Assembly (NCBI GenBank): GCA_947487765.1
Contig: CANKXO010000007.1
Coordinates: forward strand, 22,180-86,179
Reading direction: 5' to 3'
Origin: an uncultured Pseudomonadales bacterium
GTDB taxonomy: Bacteria; Pseudomonadota; Gammaproteobacteria; Pseudomonadales; Cellvibrionaceae
Length of the DNA: 64,000 nt
A program made the position numbers and the translations under genes. Shown here piece after piece: positions 26,129 to 44,093 of this stretch; the first letter of the stretch is position 1, and every line of letters starts with the position of its first letter. The notes below the pieces were generated by a model. That model was not told where the DNA came from, searched no databases, and saw only the letters and a program-made list of their open reading frames with translations.

Positions 26129-26160
26129 AACCCGATTGGCTTTGCTTATCGGGTTTTTTT
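26129..26160 (+). terminator. Terminator-like hairpin + T7 run (copy 2)
   Basis: AACCCGAT (26129-26136) pairs with ATCGGGTT (26148-26155), followed by a run of 7 T. Confidence 0.55.
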
Positions 26161-26193
26161 ATGCCCTTCATGGATGAAGGGTACATCGAAAAT

Positions 26194-26243
26194 GCAGGTC
26201 GGCTTTTGCTCCTGCAAAACCGACATTCACGCCATCCATGGCG
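26194..26243 (+). repeat. Conserved ~50-nt two-hairpin module, copy A (loops GCTCCTGC and ATCCAT)
   Basis: GCAGGTCGGCTTTTGCTCCTGCAAAACCGACATTCACGCCATCCATGGCG aligns with 27383-27429. Shared blocks are GCAGGT, GCTCCTGCAAAACC, CATTC and CCATCCATGG. The stems differ but stay paired. Confidence 0.7.
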
Positions 26244-26498
26244 CTTGAGCAATTTTTTGAGTGCCCAAAGATGGAAGATGAACCCATAACGCTCGAGAAC
26301 CTTTCGAGTATTAAAGGATTAATTTTACATGGCAGTATTTTAGGAAGTTACTCCACAAGGATGTTTTTTAATAGTGCAATGCCCACTTACACGGCATTAG
26401 TTTTTTAACAATTTGGTCGCTTTTTCCGGCATATAAGAAAGGTAAATACATTCTCGGTAATCTCGATGAGTCGTATTTTTTACTTATATGCCAAGTAT

Positions 26499-26653
26499 GC
26501 CCCTATCGTCTAGTTGGATAGGACGCTGGGTTTTCAATTCAGTAACGTCGGTTCGCCGCAAGCGGACCGGTCCAAAGTTATAAACTTTGGCCGTTCAAGA
26601 AACGCAAAGCATGCTTTGCTTAACATGTTTCTTTCACCCATCTAGGGGCACCA
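26499..26653 (+). tRNA. tRNA-Glu(UUC)-like gene interrupted by an ~85-nt structured insert in or after the T arm
   Basis: The 5' part is canonical: GCCCCTA-TC-GTCT-AGTTGGATA-GGAC-G-CTGGG-TTTTCAA-TTCAG-TAAC-GTCGG-TTCG. The 3' end TAGGGGC-A-CCA pairs perfectly with the 5' acceptor strand. The intervening sequence forms hairpins CCGC/GCGG, CCAAAGTT/AACTTTGG, and AAGAAAC..GCAAAGC/GCTTTGC..GTTTCTT. Confidence 0.6.
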
Positions 26654-26663
26654 ATAATTTGTT

Positions 26664-26740
26664 ACGTCGATAGCTTAACTGGCAAAAGCTCTGGCCTCCA
26701 AAACCAGGCGATGTAGGTTCGAACCCTACTCGGCGTGCCA
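26664..26740 (+). tRNA. tRNA-Trp (anticodon CCA)
   Basis: Hand-folded cloverleaf. Acceptor ACGTCGA/TCGGCGT, D stem GCTT/AAGC, anticodon loop CTCCAAA, T arm GTAGG-TTCGAAC-CCTAC, then G-CCA encoded. Confidence 0.85.
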
Positions 26741-26749
26741 AACATAAAT

Positions 26750-26909
26750 GCAGTGATAGCCCCAATAGATCGGCAGATTTTTGTTTCATTGAAGATCAGG
26801 AGAGTGCTGGTTCGACAGCTTTGTAGGAGCAAAAGTTGGACGCTTGTATAGGCGGTCGAGAAGCGATTATGCACAAGGATGTGTATAACAATTCCGGCTC
26901 ACTGCACCA
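26750..26909 (+). tRNA. tRNA-like gene, anticodon undetermined, with a ~72-nt four-hairpin insert in the T loop
   Basis: The acceptor GCAGTGA/TCACTGC is perfect, followed by A-CCA. T stem GCTGG (26806-26810)/CCGGC (26894-26898), with TTCGA then the insert from 26816. The anticodon arm is a 7-bp stem (GATTTTT/GAAGATC) with an 8-nt loop GTTTCATT. Confidence 0.55.
26819..26888 (+). repeat. Four-hairpin insert module, copy 1 (inside the T loop of the 26750 gene)
   Basis: P1 CTTT-GTAGGAGC-AAAG; P2 CGCTT-GTAT-AGGCG; P3 GTCG-AGAAG-CGAT; P4 TATGCACA-AGGA-TGTGTATA. Order and spacing match 29484-29551, with compensatory stem changes. Confidence 0.75.
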
Positions 26910-26916
26910 GTTTTAT

Positions 26917-26993
26917 TTCGGTGTGAAGCAGAGTGGTAATGCGCCTGACTGTTAATCAGGAGTTCGTTGGTTCGACCCTAGCCGCCGGAGCCA
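26917..26993 (+). tRNA. tRNA-Asn (anticodon GUU)
   Basis: Acceptor TTCGGTG/CGCCGGA (with G-U pairs), anticodon arm CCTGA-CTGTTAA-TCAGG, T arm GTTGG-TTCGACC-CTAGC, then G-CCA. Confidence 0.8.
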
Positions 26994-27001
26994 ATTTTAT
27001 T

Positions 27002-27083
27002 GAGGGTGTTGAGCAGGTGGTGAGCTCAGCGGACTGTAAATTCGCCGGAAACTATGTAGGTTCGATTCCTTCCACCCTCACCA
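27002..27083 (+). tRNA. tRNA-Tyr (anticodon GUA)
   Basis: Acceptor GAGGGTG/CACCCTC, D stem GAGC/GCTC, anticodon arm GCGGA-CTGTAAA-TTCGC, a 10-nt variable region, T loop TTCGATT, then A-CCA. Confidence 0.85.
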
Positions 27084-27090
27084 AATTTCC

Positions 27091-27168
27091 GGGCCAATAG
27101 CATAATCGGTAAATGCCCCGGCCTCATAAGCCGGAGAAGGAGCGGTTCGAATCCGCCTTGGCCTACCA
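27091..27168 (+). tRNA. tRNA with CAU anticodon (elongator Met or lysidine-dependent Ile2)
   Basis: Acceptor GGGCCAA/TTGGCCT, D stem GCAT/ATGC, anticodon arm CCGGC-CTCATAA-GCCGG, T loop TTCGAAT, then A-CCA. Confidence 0.8.
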
Positions 27169-27186
27169 ATTAAATGATTAGTTAAT

Positions 27187-27261
27187 AGCGGTGTTGAGCA
27201 ATGGCTGCTTTCGGGTTTCATATGCCCGAGCTTGTTGGTTCGATTCCAACCACCGCAACCA
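27187..27261 (+). tRNA. tRNA with CAU anticodon, initiator-like features
   Basis: Positions 1-72 are unpaired (A.A) above the 6-bp stem GCGGTG/CACCGC. The 3' end CACCGCAACCA resembles the fMet end CCCCGCAACCA. The anticodon stem CGGGT/GCCCG carries three consecutive G-C pairs, and the loop is TTCATAT. Confidence 0.75.
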
Positions 27262-27265
27262 AATT

Positions 27266-27356
27266 GGAAGTGTGGCCGAGTGGTAAGGCAGCGGATTGCT
27301 AATCCGTACAGTGATAAATCGTTGCTGCATGAGTTCGAATCTCATCACTTCCTCCA
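27266..27356 (+). tRNA. tRNA-Ser (anticodon GCU), type II
   Basis: Acceptor GGAAGTG/CACTTCC, anticodon arm GCGGA-TTGCTAA-TCCGT, a long variable arm, T arm ATGAG-TTCGAAT-CTCAT, then T-CCA. Confidence 0.85.
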
Positions 27357-27382
27357 AAATACTCCGGTGATGCAATTGGAAG

Positions 27383-27483
27383 GCAGGTTAAGGCTCCTGC
27401 AAAACCTGCATTCCCACCATCCATGGTGGTCACATAGCCCACTTAAAATCGGTTTGTTGCGAGTTCGACTCTCGCCGTCTGCA
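27383..27483 (+). tRNA. tRNA-like gene (anticodon loop CTTAAAA = UAA, Leu-type) carrying the two-hairpin module in its 5' (D-arm) region
   Basis: The T arm GCGAG-TTCGACT-CTCGC is canonical. The 3' acceptor strand CGTCTGC-A pairs with GCAGGT at 27383. The anticodon arm is GCCCA-CTTAAAA-TCGGT (4 of 5 bp), and there is no encoded CCA (TCA instead). An alternative outer pairing is TGATGCA (27368-27374)/TGCATCA (27480-27486). Confidence 0.4.
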
Positions 27484-27492
27484 TCAGTTTTT

Positions 27493-27565
27493 CGTGAGGT
27501 AATTCAATTAGCAGAATGCGATTTTCATAAAATCGGCGATAGTGGTGCAAGTCCACTCTTCACGA
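27493..27565 (+). tRNA. tRNA with CAU anticodon, non-consensus T loop
   Basis: Acceptor CGTGAGG/CTTCACG, D stem ATTC/GAAT, anticodon arm CGATT-TTCATAA-AATCG. The T arm AGTGG-TGCAAGT-CCACT has G instead of T at position 55. The 3' end is A-CCG, so CCA is incomplete. Confidence 0.7.
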
Positions 27566-27574
27566 CCGGTTAAT

Positions 27575-27648
27575 AGCAGCGTGGTGTAACGGTAACACAC
27601 CGGACTTTGACTTCGGTATTTCAGGTTCGAATCCTGGCGCTGTTGCCA
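27575..27648 (+). tRNA. tRNA-Gln (anticodon UUG)
   Basis: Acceptor AGCAGCG/CGCTGTT, D stem GTGT/ACAC, anticodon arm CCGGA-CTTTGAC-TTCGG, T arm TCAGG-TTCGAAT-CCTGG, then G-CCA. Confidence 0.85.
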
Positions 27649-27688
27649 AATAGTATGTTGAGTAGGGTTCTAAAAATATTTAATTTTT

Positions 27689-27763
27689 GTGCGAGTGGCA
27701 GAATGATGATGCGCGGAACTGCAACTTCCGTTTACGCCGGTTTGATTCCGGCCTCGCACTCCA
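27689..27763 (+). tRNA. tRNA-Cys (anticodon GCA)
   Basis: Acceptor GTGCGAG/CTCGCAC, anticodon arm CGGAA-CTGCAAC-TTCCG. The T arm GCCGG-TTTGATT-CCGGC has T rather than C at position 56. Ends T-CCA. Confidence 0.8.
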
Positions 27764-27769
27764 AATTTT

Positions 27770-27914
27770 CTGGATATAGCACAGCCTAGTAGCGTGTTGG
27801 GTTTAACTAAAATACATCCAAGTATTTTGCCCTTCGGGTTCTTCGAAGTTCAAAACGTTCCAGACGTTTTGTGGAGCTCAAAGTTTGTGGGTTCAAACCC
27901 TGCTATCCAGACCA
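27770..27914 (+). tRNA. tRNA-like gene, anticodon undetermined, with ~70 extra nt between the anticodon region and the T arm
   Basis: The acceptor CTGGATA/TATCCAG is perfect, followed by A-CCA. D stem GCAC/GTGT and T arm GTGGG-TTCAAAC-CCTGC are present. The interior holds hairpins AAAACGT-TCCAG-ACGTTTT and TTTG-TGGAGCT-CAAA, the latter resembling the GYAGGAGC hairpin. Confidence 0.5.
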
Positions 27915-27926
27915 ATTAATTTAAAC

Positions 27927-28000
27927 GCGGTGTTGACCGAATGGTTAGGTACCTGCCTTCCAAGCAGAGGAAATGGGTTCGATTCCCATACACCGCTCCA
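27927..28000 (+). tRNA. tRNA-Gly (anticodon UCC)
   Basis: Acceptor GCGGTGT/ACACCGC, anticodon stem CTGC/GCAG with loop CTTCCAA, T arm ATGGG-TTCGATT-CCCAT, then T-CCA. Confidence 0.85.
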
Positions 28001-28008
28001 AAATTTAA

Positions 28009-28082
28009 TGAAGGTTGGCTTAGTGGCTGAGCACCGGACTTTTAATCCGGCTAGATGGGTTCGATCCCCATACCTTCAACCA
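28009..28082 (+). tRNA. tRNA-Lys (anticodon UUU)
   Basis: Acceptor TGAAGGT/ACCTTCA, D stem GCTT/GAGC, anticodon arm CCGGA-CTTTTAA-TCCGG, T arm ATGGG-TTCGATC-CCCAT, then A-CCA. Confidence 0.88.
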
Positions 28083-28115
28083 ATTACAATAAAACAACTA
28101 AAAGGAGATCGTATT

Positions 28116-29312
28116 ATGGCGATTAAAAAAGTATTGGCGCCGCATAAAGATCAGCGGTTGCCTGTAAAAATTTGGACGGATGATATTGATTACAGCACGC
28201 AGGCTCAGTTGAGTCGTGTAGCGAACTTACCATTCGTTTATAAGCATGTAGCAGCGATGCCTGATGTACATCTCGGAAAAGGCGCCACTGTTGGTTCAGT
28301 GATTGCAACCGATAAAGCTATTATCCCTGCAGCTGTGGGTGTGGATATTGGATGTGGAATGAATGCAGTGAGATTATCTATTAAAGCAAAAGATTTGCCT
28401 GATAGCCTAAAATTGATTCGAAACGGAATTGAATCAGTTGTACCTTTAGGTCCCGGAGGTCAACATCGTGACCCCAAAATTGCTGGTGGTCATGATATAT
28501 CAATGCGTCTATGTACTATTTTTGAAAAACACCCGAAGTTAAGTAAGCGCGTTAAAGTGAATGGGTTTGCGAAACAATTAGGAACGCTGGGCTCAGGAAA
28601 TCATTTCATTGAATTATGTTTAGATGAAAATGATGACGTGTGGATTATGTTGCATTCAGGGAGTCGTGGAGTTGGCAATAAAATCGGTATGTACTTTATC
28701 GAAATTGCTAAACGAGAAATGGAAAAATGGATGATTCACTTACCTGATAAAGACTTGGCTTATCTATCTGAAGGGTCAGAATATTATGATGACTATATTG
28801 AAGCAGTTTCTTGGGGGCAAGATTATGCGGCATTGAATCGCACGCATATGATGAATGCAGTAATGCTAGAACTACGTAAGTATTTACCTGCGTTTACAAT
28901 CACACAAGAGGCTATCAATTGCCACCATAATTATGTTGAAAAGGAAAATCATTACGGCAAAAACGTATGGGTAACGCGTAAAGGCGCAATCCGTGCGAGA
29001 AAGGATGATCTTGGTATTATTCCCGGGTCCATGGGTGATAAAAGTTTTATTGTTCGTGGTAAAGGTGAATCTGAATCATTTTGTTCTTGTTCCCATGGTG
29101 CGGGTCGACGATTGAGTCGTACTGCAGCTGCAAAAACTTTTTCCGTTGCTGATCTCGTATCAGCTACTGAAGGAATAGAATGTCGTAAAGACAGGGGTGT
29201 CATTGATGAAATTCCAATGGCATATAAGCCTATCGATAGCGTGATGGATAACCAAACTGATCTAGTGGATATAGTTCATACACTTCGACAAGTCGTCAAT
29301 GTAAAAGGCTAG
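28116..29312 (+). CDS. rtcB: RNA-splicing ligase RtcB (copy 1)
   Basis: The start was moved to the ATG at 28116, which has the RBS AAGGAG 8 nt upstream. The track ORF start at 27885 runs through three tRNA genes. RtcB motifs are present: GVDIGCGMN, GSGNHFIE, HSGSRGVGN, CHHNY, PGSMGDKS, SCSHGAGR. Confidence 0.93.
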   Translation: MAIKKVLAPHKDQRLPVKIWTDDIDYSTQAQLSRVANLPFVYKHVAAMPDVHLGKGATVGSVIATDKAIIPAAVGVDIGCGMNAVRLSIKAKDLPDSLKLIRNGIESVVPLGPGGQHRDPKIAGGHDISMRLCTIFEKHPKLSKRVKVNGFAKQLGTLGSGNHFIELCLDENDDVWIMLHSGSRGVGNKIGMYFIEIAKREMEKWMIHLPDKDLAYLSEGSEYYDDYIEAVSWGQDYAALNRTHMMNAVMLELRKYLPAFTITQEAINCHHNYVEKENHYGKNVWVTRKGAIRARKDDLGIIPGSMGDKSFIVRGKGESESFCSCSHGAGRRLSRTAAAKTFSVADLVSATEGIECRKDRGVIDEIPMAYKPIDSVMDNQTDLVDIVHTLRQVVNVKG

Positions 29313-29358
29313 AAAGGACTTAGCCTTTTCTTTCACCTCTTTCCTCATTTTTAATTTA

Positions 29359-29432
29359 GCCCAATTGGCATAGTGGTCGTGCAGCTGCTTTGTAAGCAGC
29401 AGAGACAGGTTCAATTCCTGTATTGGGCTCCA
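29359..29432 (+). tRNA. tRNA-Thr (anticodon UGU)
   Basis: Acceptor GCCCAAT/ATTGGGC, D stem GCAT/GTGC, anticodon arm GCTGC-TTTGTAA-GCAGC, T arm ACAGG-TTCAATT-CCTGT, then T-CCA. Confidence 0.85.
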
Positions 29433-29441
29433 GTTTACATC

Positions 29442-29593
29442 GCCTGATTAGTTCAATTGGACTTAGAGCATCCGCCTACGACAATTTTGCAGGAGCAAAA
29501 ATTGGGCGTCTATAGAGGCGATCGTGAAACGATAATGTGCAGGACGCATATTACAAACGGGAAGATGCGGGTTCGAATCCTATTCAGGTGCCA
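29442..29593 (+). tRNA. tRNA-Arg(ACG)-like gene with the four-hairpin insert in the anticodon loop
   Basis: The 5' half is canonical: GCCTGAT-TA-GTTC-AATTGGACTTA-GAGC-A-TCCGC-CTACGA. The insert follows from about 29482. The 3' part GCGGG-TTCGAAT-CCTAT-TCAGGTG-CCA has a weak T stem, and no clean 3' anticodon-stem strand was found. Confidence 0.45.
29484..29551 (+). repeat. Four-hairpin insert module, copy 2 (inside the anticodon loop of the 29442 gene)
   Basis: P1 ATTTT-GCAGGAGC-AAAAT; P2 CGTCT-ATAG-AGGCG; P3 ATCG-TGAAA-CGAT; P4 ATGTGC-AGGAC-GCATAT. Collinear with 26819-26888. Confidence 0.75.
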
Positions 29594-29601
29594 AATTTAT
29601 T

Positions 29602-29678
29602 ACTCTCGTAGCTTAATTGGATAGAGCGTCTGTCTTCGAAACAGAACGGTGTTGGTTTGATTCCAACCGAGAGTGCCA
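29602..29678 (+). tRNA. tRNA-Arg (anticodon UCG)
   Basis: Acceptor ACTCTCG/CGAGAGT, D stem GCTT/GAGC, anticodon arm TCTGT-CTTCGAA-ACAGA, T arm GTTGG-TTTGATT-CCAAC (T at position 56), then G-CCA. Confidence 0.82.
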
Positions 29679-29917
29679 ATAATTATTATTAATAAACCCG
29701 AGAATCTTTAGGTGTGGCCGTGGCAGATTGATAAATTTACCGGGAGTAAATTTAGACGCGGGAGAGAAGCGACGGCGCCCGTAGGGGTTGTAACATGGAT
29801 GTTACAAACCAATGTGCGCTTAACTTTGGCTTAAGTGCCCTTGGTTTTTGGAAAGGGGAGTTCAGGTCGCATCGGTCACCCCTAAAGGTTTTTACTAATA
29901 GAAAAGGAGGTCAAGCA

Positions 29918-30211
29918 ATGAGACTTGCTATAACGCGATCAGGTTTTTATAACGCTGATCTTTATTGCGCTGATACTCGTACAGCTAAAAGAGTGTTGCG
30001 TGAAAAAAATATTTCCATATTGGCTATCGACTATTATCTAGTTGGCCAGGGAAATGGTTGCGATATTATTGATTGGGCTAAAAGAAATGCAGTTTTGCCT
30101 AATTTTATCGTTGTTATTGAACGTAATCGCAACAAACGAGCCTTATTATCGAATACATTACGAAATATAGGTTATCGCTCTGGTGATGATACTACCTTTA
30201 TAAGGCATTAA
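29918..30211 (+). CDS. Small receiver-fold-like protein, possibly a degenerate 'cyclic-phosphate processing receiver' (cREC)-type domain
   Basis: The start was moved to the ATG at 29918, which has a strong RBS AAGGAGG. The upstream part of track ORF 29795.. overlaps a structured RNA region. The 97-aa protein contains ...ILAIDYYLVGQGNGCDIIDWAK...PNFIVVIERNRNKRA... This resembles from memory the hhhDhDLG...G.dhh.Wh...hhhHS.N layout of small REC-like proteins that accompany RtcB, but the catalytic-type residues are replaced. Confidence 0.45.
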   Translation: MRLAITRSGFYNADLYCADTRTAKRVLREKNISILAIDYYLVGQGNGCDIIDWAKRNAVLPNFIVVIERNRNKRALLSNTLRNIGYRSGDDTTFIRH

Positions 30212-30250
30212 ATTTAGTTAAAGCGACCACTATGATTAATTGAGAATAGG

Positions 30251-30814
30251 ATGATGAATATTCAAATTTTGCAGCTATCGAAGTCAGGTCACCCAATGTC
30301 TTGGGTGAACCGTGAAGAAGCCGCAACACTGTATGCAAAAAATAGGGTGTTATGGGAGCTGGGTGACGAAGTTATTCCAATTGTCGGCGGTATTAATCGC
30401 TTGGGCATTCAAAGTCGCTTCGATATGGCACCAATTATTGCTTGTGATGGTGATGTGAAACAACCTCGTTTACGACCATCGTTAAGTAATCGTATGCTGT
30501 TTCGCCGAGACGATTACCGATGCTTGTATTGTGGTGTTCAGTTTAATCACGACGGATTAACGCGGGACCATATTGTGCCGCGTATTCAAGGTGGTTTAGA
30601 TCGTTGGGAAAATGTGGTTGCTGCTTGTAAACGCTGTAATCACAGTAAGGGTGGTCGAACGCCAGAGCAGGCAGGGATCAAGCTATTGGCCATTCCATTT
30701 GTGCCGAATCCGTTTGAGTTTCTGTTTTTGGCAAATCGACATATTCTGGCTGACCAGATGGATTATCTTGCGACAAGCTTTTCGTCAAAGCGAGACTGGA
30801 AAAAAGTGGCTTAA
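30251..30814 (+). CDS. HNH endonuclease
   Basis: The HNH core is present: CLYCGVQFNHDGLTRDHIVPRIQGGLDRWENVVAACKRCNHSKGG. 187 aa. Two hairpins follow (30806-30826 and 30837-30862). Confidence 0.85.
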   Translation: MMNIQILQLSKSGHPMSWVNREEAATLYAKNRVLWELGDEVIPIVGGINRLGIQSRFDMAPIIACDGDVKQPRLRPSLSNRMLFRRDDYRCLYCGVQFNHDGLTRDHIVPRIQGGLDRWENVVAACKRCNHSKGGRTPEQAGIKLLAIPFVPNPFEFLFLANRHILADQMDYLATSFSSKRDWKKVA

Positions 30815-30991
30815 CTATTAAGCCACCCACATATTTGGAATACAGGTATTAACCTGTATTCCATACCGATGTTTATACGTATGTTGGCGAAACAGCGGCT
30901 CTGGTTCTGAATGCCAGGCTGGCACAGTCATGTTTTATGTCCTGTGTACCGATTCACTAACACGTTAAACAGTATGCTCTGAAAAAGCATA

Positions 30992-31064
30992 GTTTTTGTA
31001 GCTCATAGGGTAGAGCAATCGACTCATAATCGATGGGTAGCAGGTTCGATTCCTGCCTCAAACA
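30992..31064 (+). tRNA. tRNA with CAU anticodon (fourth CAU gene), weak acceptor stem, no encoded CCA
   Basis: D stem GCTC/GAGC, anticodon arm ATCGA-CTCATAA-TCGAT (perfect), T arm GCAGG-TTCGATT-CCTGC. The acceptor GTTTTTG/CTCAAAC pairs at only 5 of 7 positions. The 3' end is A-CAG. Confidence 0.65.
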
Positions 31065-31424
31065 CAGTCAGTTTTAATAAACTGAAGGAAAAGCCGAGAG
31101 GCTGAGGTTCGAATCCTCATTTGGTCTACTAAACCAAATATAAAACAAGAGGCTCATAGCAACGTAATGCTGTTATAGATTATGTTGCGTTGACATTAAT
31201 ACCGTTAATGATGGGTTAAGGTATTGCGTAGTAAATAATAAGTTTACCTCACTATCAACAGCTAAGGATGGTGTCCTAGGGATGGGGATAATCAAGAGTG
31301 ATTAGGTTAGTGTGGAGCAACCGCTGTATTTGTCTACCCATTACATTTAAGTTATTTACCGTACTCATGGCAAATGGGCCTCGCCATTATAGTCATTGGA
31401 AGAAATAAATAAGGGAGAATAATA

Positions 31425-32749: not shown

Positions 32750-34531
32750 CTAGCGAAAAGATACAATCAAAAATATAAGTACAGCAATTGCCGCAAAAAT
32801 CATTACGCGAGCGAAGGGTTGCATAGAATCTGTATTAGATGCATCCGATAGCCATGGTGATTGAGATTCTTTCTGTTGTTGTGACTTAGTTTCTTCCTTT
32901 TTTGTTTGTTTTTTTGCGGTCGCTATTTGTTTAAGCTCTTCTGTAGTATTCTCTTTAACAGGTGGTGCTGGTGGCTCAGCTTGCCACCAGTTTTCGCGTG
33001 GTGCTTCACCGGCAGCGGCCTTTAAGCGTAAAAGTTTATTATTTAATTTGCCAATGCGACTTGGATTAACTTGATAACTGTATTTTTGTTTTAGTTGTAC
33101 TATTTGCTTTTGTAAAGGAATGCCCTTGCTAGGGTTAACCATTGCGACAAAGTTGGCGTAACCTTCTATGGAGCACAATAAATTGCTACTGCTATTGTGA
33201 GAACGATGAGCCCAGTGCTTACCCTCTAGCCCGCTTTTGTCAATTTGATGTAGTAAGGCTCTGAAGCGCTTTAAGGTCTTGCGATCAACGCTAAGGTTAT
33301 TATTCACTACCACGCCGGTCACTTCTTGTTTTTTATGCTTGCGCATAATGCGTGTTTTTTCGGGGTGAACAATAAAACCTTCATCCTTAATAATACTATG
33401 ACAACGCCACAATAGTTTTTTTACAATGCTGTCGTCAATATTCTGTGGATTAATATCATCGCCCTTGTTGGAGCTTGCCGAAAAAGTAACATCGTCAGCA
33501 TATCGCGTATAAGTAAAGCCTAATTTTTTAGCCATCCCTTGTAAGCGAGCATCCAATTTTCTACAGATGATATTGCTAATATTAGGGCTAGTTGGCGCTC
33601 CTTGCGGTAAAAAGCGCTCTCCGTTACTAACAAACCAAGACTGACTATCTAGTTCAACCTCCTGTGTATTCGCTTCGGTGCAAAGTAAGGCTAGTACTGT
33701 TGCAATGTGTTCACTGTAACCTAGAGCTTTAAACATCCCCTTAACTCTTGGATAGCTAATTGTTGGAAAGAAGTTTTTAAGGTCGAGGTTAATAACAATA
33801 TCTTTGCCTACATGAGGCGCAGCATTGGTTACGATAGAGCGCGTGCGTACAAAGCCATGAGCGGCATCATGTAATGCCAGCGGCTCTAAAATATTGGATA
33901 AAACCCAATACTGGGCAAGTTTCAACCGTGGCATAGGGGCAGATATTAGGCGAGTTCCACCGGTTTTCTTGGTCATTTGGAAGCGTTGATAATGACTAAT
34001 CGTGCAGACATCTTTTTGGTAGACTAAAAAACGTAGCTCATTAACGGTAATGCCCATGGCTCTGGCCAACATTTGGCTGTCGTGCAGTAGTGGTAACTGT
34101 TGGGCTTGGAGTTTGTCTTCATCGCTGTTAACTTTTGATAGCCCTATCGATAAACCTTCCCCTACGAAGGTAATAAATTTCTTTTGGATGTCGTACCAAT
34201 TCTTTGCTCGTTGGTATCGTGTTTCATTGCGTTCTTTACGCTTTTCTTCTCTACGAATAAGTGCTTCTTTTTTACGCTGTTTGTGTAACTCCTTTAGTGC
34301 TTGCTCTGGGTCTTGATACAATTGCTGTTGCTTTCCTAATTCACGCAGTTGCTTTTGTAACTGCCCGCGCTTTTCAATAAAGGTTTCTGTTAGTGTTGGC
34401 TGTTCACTATTTTTTGGCCAAAACCCAAGACGTTTCATCTCTGCTAAAATATAAACTTCTTTACCACCTGTTTCGCGTACGCGCTGGTAGAGTTCTTGGC
34501 GGCTTAATTTTTTAGTGCTTTCGTCAGACAT
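32750..34531 (-). CDS. Reverse transcriptase, retron/Abi-DRT-like, with N-terminal extension and C-terminal TM anchor
   Basis: RT motifs are present: NAAPH (NAxxH), INLDLKNFFPTI, LPQGAPTSP, YTRYADDVTFS, and QEVTGVVVNN (VTG). There is a ~190-aa charged N-terminal extension, a K/E/Q-rich tail, and a terminal hydrophobic helix MIFAAIAVLIFLIVSF. The RBS GGGAGA lies upstream. Confidence 0.9.
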   Translation of the reverse strand: MSDESTKKLSRQELYQRVRETGGKEVYILAEMKRLGFWPKNSEQPTLTETFIEKRGQLQKQLRELGKQQQLYQDPEQALKELHKQRKKEALIRREEKRKERNETRYQRAKNWYDIQKKFITFVGEGLSIGLSKVNSDEDKLQAQQLPLLHDSQMLARAMGITVNELRFLVYQKDVCTISHYQRFQMTKKTGGTRLISAPMPRLKLAQYWVLSNILEPLALHDAAHGFVRTRSIVTNAAPHVGKDIVINLDLKNFFPTISYPRVKGMFKALGYSEHIATVLALLCTEANTQEVELDSQSWFVSNGERFLPQGAPTSPNISNIICRKLDARLQGMAKKLGFTYTRYADDVTFSASSNKGDDINPQNIDDSIVKKLLWRCHSIIKDEGFIVHPEKTRIMRKHKKQEVTGVVVNNNLSVDRKTLKRFRALLHQIDKSGLEGKHWAHRSHNSSSNLLCSIEGYANFVAMVNPSKGIPLQKQIVQLKQKYSYQVNPSRIGKLNNKLLRLKAAAGEAPRENWWQAEPPAPPVKENTTEELKQIATAKKQTKKEETKSQQQKESQSPWLSDASNTDSMQPFARVMIFAAIAVLIFLIVSFR

Positions 34532-34689
34532 CTGCCTGTCTCCCTAATATAAATAAGGATAAATGTTGAGTGTTAAAAAAATGGATAATGATAGTTGTTA
34601 CAAGAACAAATAAAGAAGAGAAGTGCGCAAGATAAAAGGGTGCCAGCGTGCTCAATGTTTCCTTCGTAGAGCTCTTAGTACTGGATTGA

Positions 34690-34785
34690 TCAACTCGACG
34701 CGGCACGCCCCTACTATCGCTCATTGACTTCATGGAAGTCATACCGCAATAGCGATAGTAGGGGCTGTGCCGCCCTATGAAGATC
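34690..34785 (-). ncRNA. Highly structured non-coding element immediately upstream of the RT (candidate RT template or msr-msd-like RNA)
   Basis: A 22-bp interrupted inverted repeat joins GCGGCACGCCCCTACTATCGCT (34700-34721) to AGCGATAGTAGGGGCTGTGCCGC (34751-34773). It encloses a second hairpin TGACTTC-ATG-GAAGTCA (34725-34741). It lies in the 400-nt gap between the SWIM gene and the RT. Strand and ends are not determined. Confidence 0.45.
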
Positions 34786-34931
34786 AGGCCAGTGACGCGT
34801 GTGTAGTCTATAAACCAGAACGGCGATGCACCGCTCAAATTGCAAGGTAGATAAGTCACGCTGACACCTGTGCTAGTATAGCAGTGTTGTTAGGTTTTAA
34901 AAGAGCGCTATTAAAATTCTTCATGATCTCT

Positions 34932-36572
34932 TTAACCGTTTGCTAAGGAATATTGTTTTCTGATCGCTAATATATGTTCGCATGGCCCCATGCGCAGTAA
35001 ATTCGTTCGATAAAAATAACAGTCGCAGCTAGCCTCTTTTAAACGTTGATCGCCGTCAATTTTAATCTCAGTGTTCAAATGGTGTCCGTCATCAATGACT
35101 GTTCCTTGAATTTGAGCACCTCTTTCATTTTCTAGCTTATGATGAATTGTCACCAAGTTGGCGGCCACAAATCGAGCAGACTTTTCATCGCGCTCATTAG
35201 CAAAACGCAATGAGTCCATCGGTAAAGGTTGTTGGCTAAGTTCACGGATACGATAAACACTTCCGGCTAAATCATAAAGCACTTGCCCCTGTTGGCTATA
35301 GGCAGCCAATGCAGATTTCACTACTGACTCATCTAAATGCAGTCGTCGTGCCAGTGAGTCACTGGATTCTTGCCATGTCTCTGATAGTGCTTGGTAAACA
35401 CGTTTAAGTGTTACTTCGTCAACATCACCTCTAGGCGCTAATAGATCAAAGTTACCCATTCGTGACCAATCATTTGCTGACCAGCCCGACAAACCTAAGG
35501 TAAATGTCATATCGCCTAAATCGGCAACGTAAAAACTAGGTAAGCCATTACCTAATAGATGTACCGTAAATTTTTTGGCGATAGGGATTAAACGCTCCAA
35601 TATATGCAGGCGACGGCGCCCCCATATACGAATTGATCTAGCGTCATTTCCTGTATAAATGCTTCTGGCTAATATTAATTCTGTGCCCCATGGCTCTAAG
35701 ATAATTTTAATAGGCTCATCTGATGCCAGTTCAAATCGTATTGCCCGAGGGCCTACGCGCTCTCTTTTACGCCGCAACATATAACAAATATTGTGAATAT
35801 CCATTGGGTGCAATGTTAATGTGGTCATGGGTAAGGTCATAGCTGAGCTTACCTGTAAAAAACCACGCACCCAGCTTTCAGGAAGATCAATTTTCTTTTC
35901 GTCAAATTGTTCCTCATGGCTGGTTTGCATACTGAAACCATCGGGGTCAATTGCCAATGCTGTTTGGCGATACTCTCTTATTTTTTGAAATTCGTTGTAT
36001 AAACCTTCCGAGTAATCAATATTTGTGGTGCCGTAAGAAGTATCGGTTATATTATCAAATACGTCATAGCTACAGCTAAGTTTTCCGTAACTTGATTCAT
36101 CTTCAGAAAAACATTCAAAAAAAACTTCGTCGGGATGGACGGTAATTACTGGGTCAAGTACATACCAAGCATCCATATCGGTTTTATAAAGATGTTTGAA
36201 ATATTTGTTCTGAGCTGTATAAAAAGGCCCCATTAATGCTTGGCTTTGCTTGCTAAGTTCAGATAGTTCTTTGCGCACAAGCTCAATTTCGCCTTCCACC
36301 TGTGACTTGCGACCAATAAATTCTGCCAATAGCCGCTCTTCTTCTTCAGCTAGCCAGCGCTCGTATTCGCTGCGATCTTTTGGCTGAAAGCGCATATCAG
36401 AAATCACAACATTGTGTAGTGCCGATATCGCCTCACGAAAAGCTATTTTCTGCTTAAGCTGTCCTACAAAATAAGTAGGTAGGCGCAAACTGTCAGGCAC
36501 AAAAGATACATCTGTACTCGCTGCATTGCTCGCAACATGGCTCTGCCCATGATATCGATAACGAAATTCCAT
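34932..36572 (-). CDS. SWIM zinc-finger domain protein
   Basis: 546 aa. A C-terminal SWIM CxC...CxH signature is present (ASCDCYFYRTNLLRMGPCEHILAIR). It lies directly downstream of the WGR protein on the same strand. Confidence 0.8.
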   Translation of the reverse strand: MEFRYRYHGQSHVASNAASTDVSFVPDSLRLPTYFVGQLKQKIAFREAISALHNVVISDMRFQPKDRSEYERWLAEEEERLLAEFIGRKSQVEGEIELVRKELSELSKQSQALMGPFYTAQNKYFKHLYKTDMDAWYVLDPVITVHPDEVFFECFSEDESSYGKLSCSYDVFDNITDTSYGTTNIDYSEGLYNEFQKIREYRQTALAIDPDGFSMQTSHEEQFDEKKIDLPESWVRGFLQVSSAMTLPMTTLTLHPMDIHNICYMLRRKRERVGPRAIRFELASDEPIKIILEPWGTELILARSIYTGNDARSIRIWGRRRLHILERLIPIAKKFTVHLLGNGLPSFYVADLGDMTFTLGLSGWSANDWSRMGNFDLLAPRGDVDEVTLKRVYQALSETWQESSDSLARRLHLDESVVKSALAAYSQQGQVLYDLAGSVYRIRELSQQPLPMDSLRFANERDEKSARFVAANLVTIHHKLENERGAQIQGTVIDDGHHLNTEIKIDGDQRLKEASCDCYFYRTNLLRMGPCEHILAIRKQYSLANG

Positions 36573-36643
36573 ATTTTTGCCTGAGAAATTTTTCTGAAAA
36601 TTATGAATCTAATGCGTTTTTGTATAATTTTTATATAGCGTTT

Positions 36644-39600
36644 TTAAACACCCAGCGATGCAGGTTGTTTAATGGGTACCTTTTTGGCTGTTAAGGGTGA
36701 TGCTATATCTGGATACAATGATTGTAATTTAAGCATAGCTTTTATCAAAGCGGCTTTATCTTTATGTACCATAGTTAACGAAATTCGTTCCAATAAAGGC
36801 ATTACCATAGTGGCAACACTTATATCTTTTTCTGCTTCTCTTAATAAAAACAGTAGAATCCTATCTTTACAAACGCGACCCTTATTAATTTGTGATAACG
36901 CTGTTGTAAAATAAGCTTGTAATGAAAGTATATGGCTAGGAATACCCGCCGCGTATTCTTCTAAAAAACTGCTGACAAAAAGCTGTACATTATTTGACGG
37001 ATGCTGGCTTAACTTAAGCAAGTATTCTGGGCCATACTCAGCTTTAAAAAAAGATTGTAGTATTTCGCGTCCAAAGCTTTGTACGTCATCTCTGATGCTG
37101 TCGCAAATAAAAATAACAATTTCAGGGCTCCAATCTTCTTGGCTGTATTGTTGTCGAAAAAAATCAAAGCCAAAGGTTCTTGCATCGTCCCAGTTGCTAT
37201 TTAGAATTCGAAGAGCATCACGACTGTATTGTTTAATTTCATCTACATTTTTCTCGTAAGCCTGAAATGCAAACTGCCTGACAGATACATCGCTATGCTG
37301 GCCTAATATTGCCCATTGTTTGACTGAAAATATATCTGCATTACGTTCAGTTAAGGTTATGGCGCCCACTCGTTGAGCACAGATAGATTGTGCCTGTAAT
37401 AAGCGCCATAGCATATCATTGTCTAGTTTCGTTAAATGTGATTGTGCCAATGAAGTAAAAAAGGCAATTAATTCTTCATGTTGCCCAGGCTGCTCTTCAG
37501 ACTTAAATGTCAGCGCTAATAATGTATTTTCAATCTGCTCGGATCCCTGTTGAGAGTTGGTCATTAGGCGGGAAAAAATAGAAAGTAGGGAGGCGCGCTC
37601 TTGAGTATCGCCCTTGCAATACAAGCCGACTAATAAGTCTAATTGTTTGATTAAGTCTTTATCGGCTTGTTTGCCTAGTAATGCAGCACCTATCCCTCTA
37701 ACTTCGGCTGAGGATGAATCATGAATTGCCTGTAATAAGCTGTCGGGAATATCTCCATAAGATATTTTGTGTCCAAGCAATAATTTTGCACCTAATATTT
37801 TTCTGGGTACTTTCTCGTCATGAATTAAACGTTGCAAACTAGTAAGAGGGAAGTGTTTAATTGCATCATTTAGGTTCTCAAGTGCAAAATCGGCCAAATA
37901 CTCTGCATGCTTTTCGCTTAAGTTGCTGTTCTCTAAAAAGATAGAATCAACTATAGCTTGCAATAGTTTCTCAGCATTTCTACCAGAAATCTTTTGCTGG
38001 CAAACAGCCGTTTTAATGTCACTTTGTACATCACTATGAAGAATCAATAGTAGTGATGTTAATAGTGAAATATCATCATTAATTTTGAACCTTAGTAAAG
38101 ATTGCTTACCTAATACTCTAGCCTCAGTCAGCGAGCTACTTAGTAGAGCGATTAATAATTCACTACTTAAATCGTCTTGTTTAATGCGTTCGCGAACAAT
38201 TGCTAGTGCAAATTCACAAGTACTCGCATAGTTGCTGTTCAGTAAAAGAGCTAAATCTACAGGGCTGATTTTCTGGCAAAAACTCGGTTGATTTTCTAAT
38301 ATCCGACGAGCGAAAGGATGAACCAGCTCGCATCGACTTGTTTTTAATAAGCGTAGTGCATGGCTAGGCTTTTGATCCCAAAGTTCAGCAAAGCATTCGG
38401 TACGAGATCCATTTATCAAGGAAGTACCGTCGGTATTCGACTCATCACTTTTTATCCAGACGCGGCCACTAGGTGCAAGTTGATACCCTGGATGATGTTC
38501 GAAGAGGATATGATTTAAGCTTAAGAAGCTGGCAAAAGGGCCATATTCATTGCTGGATATCAACTGGCGTTGCCAATTGTCGCCACTATTATCCCAGCGA
38601 TAAACCTCTGATGTTCGAGGCTTGCTACCATGCTCATCATTAATCGCAAGCAATGATTCTGTTGCCATATCAACATAACGGAGATCACCGGCCTGTCCTA
38701 TACGCCTGAGTACTCGCCAGCTACGACGGCGAAAGTAATCTCGTGTACGATGCGAGAAGGTCAATTTTGCATTGGCCTTTTTCAGTTCTTTAGATGGTTT
38801 AATACTGCCTTCACCGGGAAGCCATGCCCAATCCCAATCATTACGAAAAAATGCGGGTGCTGTTTCTATACGCTGCGCTAATAAGCCAAATACAGACCCG
38901 TCAAGACGTAGCTCGGATGCTTTATAAATTGATCTAATGCCCCGAAAATATCCTGGGGTTAGGGGAATAATAGCCAGTTGACTTAATAATGCTTGATGCA
39001 ATATGGGGTAAGCTAGCGATAGCTGATAACAAAGTACCAATAGCTGATTAGTATTGTTAACGTTGTCACTAGCCCCATGACTGAGCAACGCGCCAAGTTG
39101 CTGATGAGCAGTGCTACTATTTCCTTCCATAACAGCAGATTTAAACTGTGCAGGAAAGTGCTGCCAATGGCTGCCTAACAAGGCTTTGCGCGATGTTTGG
39201 TCGCTGATTAATAGTTGCGATTCAAAGGCTATATGACAAACTTGTGCTTGTTTGTGTTGCCTCAAGGTTTCTAAAACCGCCTTGTGTTGCGTGGCAACCA
39301 TCCGCCCCAAGGCCCAAGCAATAGAGTAATCCTCTAACCAATGGCCTTTCTTAATATAGGGCACAATTGCATTGGCAATAGGTTCACAATCTCGGTGCCC
39401 TAATTCCCCGAGTCGCCATATCATGCGGCTGCGAGATTTAGTCTCTTTTTCATTGGGTAAATGATTGAGTATCTGTTCAATTAGTTTAAAAGGAAAGTCA
39501 TCGGAGGCAAGATTGCTAGAAGGGACGCCTGCAAGTGTAGGCGAGGTAGTAGTAGGGGACTGTTTTGCTTGTTCTCTATCCCAATAGCCTTTATTGACTT

Positions 39601-41460: not shown

Positions 41461-41464
41461 TAAG

Positions 41465-42367: not shown

Positions 42368-42864
42368 GCCTTTATTTTTTAATTGAACCACTTTGTATTT
42401 GTTAACCTATAAAAATACTCATTAATATAGTTGTAGTTAATTTTTGTAAGGAAATGTTATAAAAATTATGAATAAAGATATTGATATATAATTTTAATAT
42501 GACTATAGTGCGCGCAGTTTTTACAAATCACCTTTAATCAATACTCTACAGGAGGCTCAAGTATGTTGTATCTAAATAATCAAATCGCATTGTTGGGTTT
42601 GTCTGTATCTTGTTCTTATAGCTAACATTTTTGTTAACGCTATAGCTATCTTTCAGATAAATCCTCTTAGCTAAACGTCTTAACTGTACGTTATAGGTAG
42701 TTTTGCGTAATTTTTTAAGCTAATTCTTGTTGGTCAAATTCTATCGACCATACATTTGCATTTTTTTATGCGGTTAGCGATTAATCTGTATCGCCTTTTG
42801 TTTCAACTCGAAAATATTTTTTGAGGGGGCAATGTCGTGCCTAAAAACATGAGTAGAAATTTTA

Positions 42865-44091: not shown

Positions 44092-44093
44092 AT

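What the first reader, a model, noticed from the sequence alone, without database searches (positions are those of the whole stretch)
26499..29593. Five tRNA-like genes with preserved ends but 25-85 nt structured inserts at different non-canonical positions, next to RtcB
Seen in sequence. The five genes are:
- 26499-26653 (155 nt, Glu-UUC-like)
- 26750-26909 (160 nt)
- 27383-27483 (~101 nt)
- 27770-27914 (145 nt)
- 29442-29593 (152 nt, Arg-ACG-like)

Three of them keep perfectly complementary 7-bp acceptor strands plus encoded A-CCA across the interruption: GCCCCTA...TAGGGGC, GCAGTGA...TCACTGC and CTGGATA...TATCCAG.

The inserts sit in different places:
- T loop after TTCGA (26816)
- T-arm region (about 26558)
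- 5'/D region (about 27393)
- between the anticodon and T arms (about 27800-27885)
- anticodon loop after CTACGA (29482)

All inserts are rich in hairpins.

Established knowledge. Bacterial tRNA introns known to me are self-splicing group I introns (more than 200 nt, in the anticodon loop) or rare group II introns. Protein-spliced introns at varied positions are an archaeal trait, and their exons are joined by RtcB.

Inference, in three alternatives:
(a) The inserts are intervening sequences removed by an unidentified endonuclease or ribozyme activity, with the exons joined by the adjacent RtcB. That would be a bacterial protein-dependent tRNA splicing system.
(b) They are retained, making tRNA-scaffolded RNAs such as decoys or sensors.
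(c) They are decayed pseudogenes. Alternative (c) fits poorly with the preserved long-range acceptor complementarity.
Basis: partly seen in the sequence, partly recalled or inferred. Interest (0 to 1): 0.92.

Follow-up and report, generated by a model that had tools for sequence, protein, structure and literature searches.

The report
tRNA genes broken by small mobile hairpin elements
Six tRNA genes in a spare tRNA array next to an RNA-repair ligase are each interrupted, inside a loop, by a small hairpin-rich repeat that also occurs in other bacteria, so they look like insertion-damaged genes rather than a new bacterial tRNA-splicing system, although splicing has not been ruled out.

Summary
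The interrupted tRNA-like genes are real. Four of the five are at the stated coordinates, one (c3) was mis-delimited, and a sixth was missed. Related genomes hold the same array with intact Glu, Phe, Pro, Arg(ACG), His, Tyr, Thr and Leu(UAA) genes, so each insert has an empty-site counterpart.

Most inserts belong to repeat families:
- Family A is a 73-77 nt four-hairpin element. 25 of 26 base pairs show compensatory changes, G·U outnumbers A·C 35 to 7, and two loops carry GGA. It always follows a T-loop-like TTCGA/TACGA/TTGA, with no target duplication.
- The tRNA-Pro insert is a family A relative in antisense orientation.
- Family B is a 49-nt element found in D loops.

In distant bacteria family A lies in partial tRNA/tmRNA 3' fragments and in tandem or nested copies. 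None of 10 such copies restores a tRNA on excision, and no RtcB is in the flanks inspected.

In the window only c4 and c5 would give canonical tRNAs if excised. Host exons carry more lesions than intact array tRNAs (2.0 vs 0.84, p=0.005).

No bulge-helix-bulge motif, ribozyme family or endonuclease candidate was found.

Best reading: a dispensable tRNA array colonised by loop-targeting mobile mini-elements. RtcB-dependent splicing stays possible, at about 10%.

The parts
26499..26653 (+). c1: tRNA-Glu(UUC) gene with a 79-85 nt insert (26556-26640) in the T loop after GGTTCG. The T-stem 3' strand is no longer complementary.
   Evidence: The orthologue L164 8520-8595 is an intact tRNA-Glu. It is identical in the 5' 57 nt apart from 2 changes, and AATCCG is replaced here. 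An ARAGORN deletion scan restores Glu only at the threshold level. This insert has no other copy in any locus fetched.
26750..26909 (+). c2: a former tRNA-Phe(GAA) gene. It carries a family A element at 26816-26891 in the T loop (58/59), plus a remnant of a family B element (26773-27787 region; GCAGATTTTTGTTTC at 26773-26787) that has scrambled the D/anticodon arm.
   Evidence: R1 scores 90.2 bits. L164 8692-8845 has the same insert in a clean Phe cloverleaf, and L198 8541-8617 is an intact Phe. No tRNA is recovered after excision in the window copy.
27361..27486 (+). c3, re-delimited: tRNA-Leu(UAA)-type gene with a 49-nt family B element at 27383-27431 in the D loop. The 3' acceptor strand is replaced and there is no CCA.
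   Evidence: Aligned to the intact L164 9299-9375 and L165 9496-9572. After excision ARAGORN calls it only at 90% of its threshold.
27770..27914 (+). c4: tRNA-Pro(UGG) gene (C1-G72, A73) with a 68-nt insert at 27804-27871 between positions 33 and 34. The insert is a family A relative in antisense orientation.
   Evidence: R1 with filters off gives 19.7 bits on the minus strand (27805-27871) and 1.7 bits on the plus strand. Intact Pro genes are at L198 9813-9890 and L166 9905-9981. L165 has the same insert, 88% identical. Excision gives Pro(tgg) at ps105 with 1 mismatch and no GG.
29441..29593 (+). c5: tRNA-Arg(ACG) gene with a family A element at 29482-29556 in the anticodon loop (37/38).
   Evidence: R1 scores 91.3 bits. 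The same insert is present in L164 and L165, and L198 11249-11324 and L200 4466-4544 are intact. Excision gives Arg(acg) at ps100 with 3 stem mismatches.
29714..29882 (+). c6, new: a former tRNA-His(GUG) gene. It has a diverged family A element at 29732-29811 in the D loop, its anticodon has changed from GTG to TTG, and there is a second disruption in the T arm.
   Evidence: R1 scores 29.1 bits, E 8e-5 over the window. L164 11605-11678 and L200 4573-4646 are intact His genes.
26160..26410 (+). GGA-hairpin-rich stretch upstream of the array, built of family A-like modules and ending in a terminator-like hairpin. A 49-nt family B copy (26199-26247) is inserted in the loop of a P1-like hairpin.
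   Evidence: Repeat and pattern matches. Comparison with L164 8125-8431. The stretch is absent from L165 and L200, where TTTTTTTATGCCC runs straight on.
28116..29312 (+). RtcB RNA ligase inside the array.
   Evidence: Pfam PF01139, E 7.5e-128. Orthologues 85-95% identical sit in the same array context.
26664..31065 (+). The 14 uninterrupted tRNA genes of the array: Trp, Asn, Tyr, Met x4, Ser, Gln, Cys, Gly, Lys, Thr, Arg-UCG. All but two Met genes (27493-27567 and 30992-31065) have CCA encoded.
   Evidence: ARAGORN and Rfam. Lesion counts.

Best explanation
The window holds an accessory tRNA gene array inside an RNA-repair island. The island order is: tRNA array, RtcB, cREC-like protein, HNH, SPFH, CCA-adding enzyme, RlaP, RtcB2-PrfH. 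Small, non-autonomous, hairpin-rich mobile elements have colonised this array.

Shown:
- Each interrupted gene has an uninterrupted orthologue elsewhere.
- Most inserts are members of repeat families. Family A is 73-77 nt with four hairpins (P1-P4), and the P1 and P4 loops carry GGA. Family B is 49 nt with two hairpins.
- Insertion is precise, with no target duplication. It always falls in the loop of a tRNA hairpin. Family A goes to the T loop at 58/59, the anticodon loop at 37/38 or 33/34, and the D loop, directly after a T-loop-like YRA (TTCGA, TTCAA, TACGA, TTGA). Family B goes to the D loop.
- Both orientations occur.
- The element's own structure is conserved by compensatory change and reads on one strand.

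Inferred:
- The elements move at the DNA level, probably through a folded single strand recognised by a transposase or recombinase supplied in trans.
- Insertion inactivates the tRNA gene. Copies therefore persist only in dispensable targets: redundant array tRNAs here, and leftover tRNA/tmRNA 3' fragments in other bacteria.
- The hit genes then decay.
- RtcB is there because the island repairs cleaved tRNA and rRNA, not to splice these genes.
- The chimeric transcripts, if made, would expose CsrA/Rsm-type GGA hairpins. Whether that matters is unknown.
For: Empty versus filled sites:
- Glu, His, Leu(UAA), Tyr and Thr are intact in one genome and interrupted in another.
- Phe, Pro and Arg(ACG) are intact in L198/L200 and interrupted in the window, L164 and L165.

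Family structure:
- With 8 copies, 96% of cells pair and 16 of 26 pairs are compensatory.
- With 21 distinct copies, 92% pair and 25 of 26 pairs are compensatory; 0 of 500 shuffles reach this.
- G·U 35 versus A·C 7.

Orientation and spread:
- An antisense copy sits in tRNA-Pro.
- All five significant R1 hits in the 64 kb lie within the array or its leader.
- The W and L165 Pro inserts are 88% identical while their exons are only 65% identical, with compensated acceptor changes. This implies repeated site-specific invasion.

Distant copies (GC 0.50-0.65):
- They lie in partial tRNA-Arg, tRNA-Ser and tmRNA 3' fragments, or in tandem or nested arrays. RtcB is absent from the flanks of the five loci inspected (L175, L176, L179, L183, L184).
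- 0 of 10 restore a tRNA on excision.

Decay of hosts:
- W c1, c2, c3 and c6, L165 c2 and L200 x are not recoverable.
- Recoverable hosts carry 2.0 lesions versus 0.84 in 57 intact array tRNAs (Mann-Whitney p=0.0046).

Array fate: whole arrays are eroded in relatives L084, L189, L191 and L195.

Rfam: no ribozyme or intron family matches.
Against: - About ten insert-bearing genes would be clean tRNAs if the element were removed exactly. Examples are L166 x1 and L200 Thr with 0 lesions, and L164 Phe and L200 Met with 1. That fits recent insertion but also fits maintained, spliced genes.
- The three shared inserts (Phe, Pro, Arg) persist across genomes whose RtcB differs by 5-11%.
- The one-strand G·U bias, the tandem G·A pairs and the GNA-type triloops look RNA-like.
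- No transposase or recombinase for the elements was found in the window or the flanks.
- Divergence rates could not separate exons from intact tRNAs, because the arrays are mosaics.
- No expression data are available.
Confidence: 0.6

Rival explanations
1. True mobile tRNA introns. The sense-oriented elements are transcribed within the pre-tRNA. An unidentified endonuclease or an intrinsic ribozyme activity cuts them out, leaving 2',3'-cyclic phosphate and 5'-OH ends, and the adjacent RtcB joins the exons. This would be a bacterial analogue of archaeal mobile tRNA introns.
For: - Inserts lie only in loops, are exact to the nucleotide, and include the canonical 37/38 site.
- Roughly half of the hosts are canonical after in-silico excision.
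- Families of similar inserts sit at different positions in different tRNAs, as in Thermoproteales (own knowledge; review PMC4090602).
- Structure is conserved on the tRNA-sense strand for family A.
- RtcB and a CCA-adding enzyme are in the island.
Against: - There is no BHB motif; hairpins are flush with the 5' junction.
- No Rfam ribozyme or intron matches.
- No EndA-like or other RNase gene is in the island, and none tracks insert presence.
- The tRNA-Pro insert is antisense.
- Four of the six window genes are defective even after excision.
- Distant copies sit in tRNA fragments and tandem arrays, with no RtcB in the five flanks inspected.
- Copies are nested inside other copies.
Confidence: 0.1
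2. Retained, functional chimeras. The elements stay in the RNA and make tRNA-scaffolded RNAs that present two GGA hairpins. For example, they could act as CsrA/RsmA-titrating modules co-expressed with the stress-induced array, or as decoys for tRNA-targeting nucleases.
For: - P4 loops match the CsrA SELEX consensus RUACARGGAUGU (own knowledge) at 10-11 of 12 positions in several copies, and P1 loops are CAGGAG.
- The only Rfam similarities of the window copies, though not significant, are to RsmY and RsmV hairpins.
- The stretch upstream of the array is built of the same GGA hairpins.
- The elements are more conserved than the neighbouring exons in c5: 3 of 75 versus 8 of 79 differences.
- GC-rich relatives resemble an RNA-seq-detected sRNA family, RF02902 (PMC5909427).
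Against: - Antisense copies (c4, family B) would show UCC loops, not GGA, in the array transcript.
- Insertion sites follow a target sequence rather than any scaffold logic.
- The same element occurs in non-tRNA contexts.
- There are no binding or expression data.
- The Rfam Rsm matches have E values of 3-5.
Confidence: 0.15
3. Ordinary pseudogene decay by unrelated random indels, with no mobile element involved.
For: The c1 insert has no other copy in any sequence fetched, and it is accompanied by loss of T-arm complementarity. c2, c3 and c6 carry additional damage.
Against: - Five of the six inserts belong to recurrent families with covarying structure.
- Boundaries are exact.
- The same sites are hit in diverged alleles.
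Confidence: 0.03

Closest known systems
Rfam RF02902, AaHKsRNA22 (an RNA-seq-defined intergenic sRNA of Aggregatibacter actinomycetemcomitans HK1651; PMC5909427)
   Same: GC-rich family A copies align to its whole model. The P2, P3 and P4 hairpins and the GA...GA flanks of P4 match, scoring 26.7-30.3 bits.
   Different: All scores are below the gathering score of 39.8, and the window copies do not hit it at all. The Rfam entry is a plain sRNA of unknown function. Nothing I could find describes it as a repeat that inserts in tRNA loops.
Archaeal protein-spliced tRNA introns at non-canonical positions, including the transposing intron families of Thermoproteales (review PMC4090602; own knowledge)
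   Same: Short inserts (tens of nt) in D, anticodon and T loops. Related inserts occur in different tRNAs. An RtcB ligase is at hand.
   Different: No bulge-helix-bulge motif and no EndA. Antisense, nested and tandem copies occur, as do copies in tRNA fragments. Many hosts are unrepairable.
Small non-autonomous bacterial repeats that fold as single strands: REP/REPIN elements and the hairpin-ended mini-derivatives of IS200/IS605 (own knowledge)
   Same: Below 100 nt and made of hairpins. The end hairpins (P1, P4) resemble each other. A conserved short target sits on the left flank and there is no target duplication. The structure shows strand bias, and tandem and nested clusters occur.
   Different: The hairpin starts at the very first base, with no room for the guide/cleavage spacing of IS608-type ends. 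No Y1 transposase or RAYT was seen. The target is a hairpin loop of tRNA genes. Two conserved inner hairpins are also present.
Group I introns in bacterial tRNA anticodon loops and the tmRNA T loop (10.1101/2020.01.27.920355; PMC13011429; own knowledge)
   Same: They interrupt tRNA loops, are mobile, and hide the genes from tRNA finders.
   Different: Group I introns exceed 200 nt and have a catalytic core detected by Rfam. Here the inserts are 49-87 nt and give no match.
Long accessory tRNA gene arrays linked to rtcB and induced under translational stress (PMC8421152)
   Same: A many-gene tRNA operon with RtcB and other RNA-repair genes nearby. Some members are pseudogenes, and insertions and deletions between species are frequent.
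   Different: That work describes cyanobacterial arrays and does not report loop-specific structured inserts.
Csr/Rsm sponge sRNAs (RsmY, RsmV, CsrB)
   Same: Repeated hairpins with A(N)GGA loops.
   Different: Only faint, non-significant Rfam similarity (E 3-5). Here the hairpins are parts of a mobile repeat.

Membership tests
Protein-spliced (archaeal/eukaryal type) tRNA intron | Bulge-helix-bulge motif spanning both splice sites | tested here: not met
   P1 (family A) or hairpin I (family B) begins at the first inserted base. The last hairpin ends 2-4 nt before the 3' junction. Neither the sequence nor the MFE folds show an exon-intron helix with 3-nt bulges.
Protein-spliced (archaeal/eukaryal type) tRNA intron | Splicing endonuclease (EndA/Sen family) encoded by the organism | tested here: inconclusive
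   None among the island or window proteins scanned. The rest of the genome could not be read.
Protein-spliced (archaeal/eukaryal type) tRNA intron | Exons give a functional tRNA after exact removal | tested here: inconclusive
   Met for c4 and c5 and for about eight genes in relatives. Not met for c1, c2, c3 and c6.
Protein-spliced (archaeal/eukaryal type) tRNA intron | Mature spliced RNA exists | not testable with these tools
   No expression data.
Group I / group II intron | Catalytic core recognised by covariance models; length above 200 nt | tested here: not met
   No Rfam intron match even at E<=10, and the inserts are 49-87 nt.
Known self-cleaving ribozymes (hammerhead, twister, twister-sister, pistol, hatchet, HDV-like, hairpin) | Match to the family model | tested here: not met
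   No match at E<=10 in 25.9-31.2 kb or in close-up scans of the elements.
Rfam RF02902 AaHKsRNA22 | Score at or above the gathering threshold (39.8 bits) | tested here: not met
   26.7-30.3 bits for GC-rich relatives, and nothing for the window copies. Homology is plausible, but membership by Rfam's rule is not shown.
Classical MITE | Terminal inverted repeats and target-site duplication | tested here: not met
   There are no terminal inverted repeats; P1 and P4 are direct, not inverted, relatives. T loops sum to exactly 7 nt after excision.
Single-strand (IS200/IS605-type) mini-element | Hairpins near both ends, a fixed short target on the left flank, no duplication, and structure on one strand only | tested here: met
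   The P1 and P4 hairpins carry the same GGA loop. The left flank ends in RA in 17 of 19 copies, mostly TTCGA/TACGA. G·U 35 versus A·C 7.
Single-strand (IS200/IS605-type) mini-element | Cognate Y1 transposase in the genome, and spacing between hairpin foot and cleavage site | tested here: inconclusive
   No transposase in the window or the flanks. The hairpin is flush with the left end, unlike IS608. The whole genome is not available.
Canonical tRNA gene | Detected by ARAGORN or the Rfam tRNA model as it stands | tested here: not met
   None of the six is called. With intron search ARAGORN calls c4 and c5 only, and places the intron oddly.
Csr/Rsm sRNA | Match to a clan CL00106 model; several GGA hairpins | tested here: inconclusive
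   GGA hairpins are present. The Rfam RsmY and RsmV matches score only 8.7 and 6.6 bits.

The most novel reading that the evidence does not exclude
The sense-oriented family A elements, and perhaps family B in D loops, are genuine mobile intervening sequences of bacterial tRNAs. They would be removed from the array's pre-tRNAs by an as yet unknown nuclease or by their own four-hairpin fold, with the exons rejoined by the RtcB encoded inside the array. That would be a protein-dependent tRNA splicing pathway in bacteria, parallel to the archaeal one.
Probability: 0.1. Interest if true: 0.9.

Novelty: new variant of a known kind. Interest (0 to 1): 0.5.

Why it matters
If the main reading holds, this is a small structured repeat with unusual behaviour. 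It lands precisely in the loops of tRNA hairpins, guided by a T-loop-like sequence, and it keeps a four-hairpin fold across bacteria whose copies range from 36% to 65% GC.

Practical consequences:
- It explains why tRNA finders miss genes in accessory tRNA arrays.
- It shows how such arrays erode.
- It gives an Rfam 'sRNA' of unknown function (RF02902) a likely identity as a mobile repeat.
- It supplies a covariance model and a set of filled and empty sites, which make the mobility mechanism and the possible CsrA link testable.

If the minority reading holds, it would be the first protein-dependent tRNA splicing system in bacteria, which would be a major finding.

Tried and rejected
- Phage origin. 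No close phage is in INPHARED; only RtcB matches, at about 66%. The flanks are ordinary bacterial genes.
- RtcB neighbours in IMG/VR. 80 loci were fetched and almost none has an array.
- A family A pattern in viral contigs gave three chance hits inside coding sequence.
- RtcB neighbours in GTDB genomes. Only distant arrays (L129, L148) turned up, and the closest genome there (L084) has a decayed array. No family A copies were found except weak ones.
The closest named relatives are Cellvibrionaceae (Aurantivibrio, Simiduia).
- An ARAGORN deletion scan to locate the inserts was only partly informative.
- Divergence of exons versus intact tRNAs versus inserts was uninformative. The arrays are mosaics: intact tRNAs differ by 0-42% between genomes, and RtcB four-fold sites differ by 40% while the neighbouring 97-aa gene differs by 2.7%.
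- Pairing between the exon flank and P3, as a guide-like interaction, fits some copies but not others (inspection), so it was dropped.
- A MazF-type ACA at both junctions was considered. The 5' A|CA is common, but the 3' ACA is absent in GC-rich copies, so it was dropped.
- Literature searches for bacterial tRNA inserts of this kind found only group I introns and the array/rtcB paper.
- No supplementary table for AaHKsRNA22 was available.

Full report
**What is in the window**

ARAGORN finds 14 tRNA genes between 26664 and 31065, all on the + strand. Rfam's tRNA model agrees. RtcB lies inside the array at 28116-29312. Downstream genes are:
- a 97-aa protein with a weak cREC_REC match
- an HNH protein
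- an SPFH protein
- a type XIII retron on the opposite strand
- a CCA-adding-type nucleotidyltransferase with an HD domain
- RlaP
- an RtcB2-PrfH pair

Upstream are ordinary metabolic genes (LysR, M20 peptidase, serine acetyltransferase, aldehyde dehydrogenase). So this is a chromosomal RNA-repair island in a gammaproteobacterium, not a phage. The closest RtcB relatives are Cellvibrionaceae. Accessory tRNA arrays linked to rtcB are known (PMC8421152).

**Checking the observation**

None of the five candidates is called by ARAGORN or Rfam.

Relatives were reached through RtcB homologues 85-95% identical. They hold the same array, and this settles what each candidate is.
- L164 is syntenic with the window.
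- L198 has intact Phe(GAA), Pro(UGG) and Arg(ACG) genes at the places of c2, c4 and c5.
- c3 was mis-delimited. Aligned to the tRNA-Leu(UAA) genes of L164 and L165, the gene runs from 27361. It has a 49-nt insert at 27383-27431 in the D loop, and it has lost its 3' acceptor strand and CCA.
- The c4 insert lies in the anticodon loop between positions 33 and 34, not between the arms.

**The inserts are families of a structured repeat**

The c2 and c5 inserts are 78% identical over 59 nt.

Copies from the window, L164, L165 and L166 define family A, which is 73-77 nt long and has four hairpins.
- On eight copies, 96% of cells pair and 16 of 26 pairs show compensatory changes. No shuffle out of 500 reaches this, and slid controls fall to about 40% paired.
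- A covariance model (R1) finds the element only in the arrays of the close relatives among 1.27 Mb of RtcB loci.
- Within the 64-kb window, scored without filters, all five significant hits lie between 26.1 and 29.9 kb.
- With 21 distinct copies, 25 of 26 pairs show compensatory change.
- G·U pairs outnumber A·C 35 to 7, so the fold is read on one strand.

The P1 loop is (C)AGGAG. The P4 loop is A(N)GGA(U/C)G, which is close to the CsrA SELEX consensus (own knowledge). P3 has a GAA/AAA-type triloop.

Every copy follows a T-loop-like pentamer: TTCGA, TTCAA, TTTGA, TACGA or ATTGA. After excision the loop has its normal length, so there is no target duplication.

**Orientation and the other families**

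Scored without filters, the c4 insert matches R1 over its full length on the minus strand (19.7 bits, against 1.7 bits on the plus strand). Its P1 also resembles that of a sense copy in L165 (by inspection). It is therefore an antisense member of the family.

Family B is 49 nt, with two hairpins whose loops (UCCU, AUCCAU) are the complements of GGA loops. It occurs:
- in c3
- as a remnant in c2
- in the leader at 26199-26247
- in the D loops of otherwise perfect tRNA-Thr and tRNA-Met genes in L200
- in L165 c2

The leader at 26160-26410 is itself made of family A-like GGA hairpins. It is missing from L165 and L200.

The c1 insert has no relative in anything fetched.

**The element elsewhere**

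A pattern from P1 found 22 places in metagenome contigs, and 7-10 of them are strong R1 matches (46-60 bits) with GC 0.50-0.65. None is in an intact tRNA.
- In L175 the copies lie in repeated partial copies of a tRNA-Arg(CCG) 3' end, downstream of the intact gene. One copy has another piece nested in its P1 loop.
- In L177 and L183 they lie in partial tmRNA 3' ends downstream of the tmRNA gene.
- In L176 the copy sits next to a tRNA-Ser-like 3' fragment.
- In L184, L187 and L139 they form tandem or partial copies.

In-silico excision restores no tRNA in any of 10 cases. The flanking genes of the loci with coding flanks (L175, L176, L179, L183, L184) include neither RtcB nor a transposase; L139, itself an RtcB locus, is the exception.

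These GC-rich copies align along the whole Rfam model RF02902 (AaHKsRNA22) at 26.7-30.3 bits, below its threshold of 39.8. That family comes from an RNA-seq survey (PMC5909427). The window copies give only faint RsmY and RsmV similarity.

**Are the host genes still good?**

Exact removal of the element gives a tRNA that ARAGORN calls at thresholds typical of the intact array members for:
- window c4 (Pro) and c5 (Arg)
- L164 Phe and Arg
- L165 Tyr, Pro and Arg
- L166 x1
- L200 Thr and Met

It does not do so for window c1, c2, c3 and c6, L165 c2 or L200 x.

The recoverable genes carry on average 2.0 stem mismatches or lost invariant features. The 57 intact tRNAs of the same arrays carry 0.84 (p=0.0046).

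Divergence rates could not be used, because the arrays are recombination mosaics.

The W and L165 Pro genes differ by 35%, with compensated acceptor changes, yet carry inserts 88% identical at the same site and in the same orientation. This points to repeated site-specific invasion.

**Interpretation**

The data fit a small non-autonomous mobile element. It inserts precisely into loops of tRNA-gene hairpins after a T-loop-like sequence, in either orientation, and it survives where the target is dispensable.

This explains four things:
- the crowding of copies in a redundant array
- their presence in leftover tRNA/tmRNA fragments elsewhere
- nesting and tandem clusters
- the decay of many hosts

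The one-strand structure suggests recognition of a folded single strand. No enzyme was identified, so movement at the DNA level is an inference.

Evidence against the splicing idea:
- no BHB motif
- no known ribozyme
- no nuclease gene that tracks the inserts
- an antisense copy
- unrepairable hosts

Evidence that keeps it alive:
- exact loop insertions, including one at 37/38
- several pristine host genes
- the RNA-like look of the fold

A third possibility is that the GGA hairpins are used, for example to bind CsrA. It rests on loop motifs only.

**Scores**

I put 0.6 on insertional disruption by a mobile repeat. I put 0.15 on retained functional chimeras, 0.1 on true splicing, and 0.03 on random decay. 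The rest is unassigned.

Noticed in passing
window 32750-39820 (minus strand): A type XIII retron module sits between the SPFH gene and the CCA-enzyme gene. Its parts are RT_XIII (E 1e-187), SWIM_XIII (E 7e-232) and WGR/HEAT_XIII. It is absent from the syntenic L164, so it is a separate insertion into the island.
   Followed up: partly
window 40201-44789: A second repair block: a PolyA_pol/CCA-type nucleotidyltransferase with an HD domain, RlaP, then RtcB2 and a PrfH-type release-factor homologue. RtcB2-PrfH is the pair known to repair colicin E3-cut ribosomes (PMC9304027).
   Followed up: partly
window 26160-26410: About 250 nt upstream of the array is packed with GGA-loop hairpins, for example CCCTTCATGGATGAAGGG and AAAATGC-AGGA-GCAATTTT, and ends in a terminator-like hairpin. 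It looks like a Csr/Rsm-type sponge built from family A modules. No Rfam family matches it, and it is missing in L165 and L200.
   Followed up: partly
L164 9299-9543; L165 9496-9654; L200 2513-2673: The array tRNAs with Leu anticodons (UAA, UAG, CAA) are only 77-78 nt and lack the long variable arm of bacterial tRNA-Leu. The window's Met gene at 27493-27567 has a TGCAAGT T loop and no GG in its D loop. Several array tRNAs are thus non-standard even when uninterrupted.
   Followed up: no
L166 9162-9302; L198 8641-8796 (window: none): Small ArfA-family (alternative ribosome rescue) ORFs sit between tRNA genes in the arrays of L166 and L198. L165 has a similar unannotated small ORF at 8667-8813 whose product resembles them by eye. 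This fits a translation-rescue role for the island.
   Followed up: no
L175 4740-5100; L177 80-400; L183 190-420: Downstream of an intact tRNA-Arg(CCG) and of tmRNA genes there are repeated units. Each is a partial 3' end of that gene with a family A element in its T-loop position. One unit has a nested insertion in the P1 loop. These look like old attachment-site remnants that were later hit by the element.
   Followed up: partly
L084 9100-10000; L189, L191, L195: In some genomes with a closely related RtcB (L084 80%, L189/L191/L195 84-85% identical) the array is reduced to 0-2 tRNA genes. In L084 a 5'-truncated tRNA-Cys fragment lies directly in front of rtcB. The arrays are therefore readily lost.
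   Followed up: no
L200 1990-2240: A family A element (2147-2222) lies in the T loop of a long tRNA-like gene that ends ...CCCGTCACGTCCACCA. ARAGORN cannot classify the gene even after excision.
   Followed up: partly
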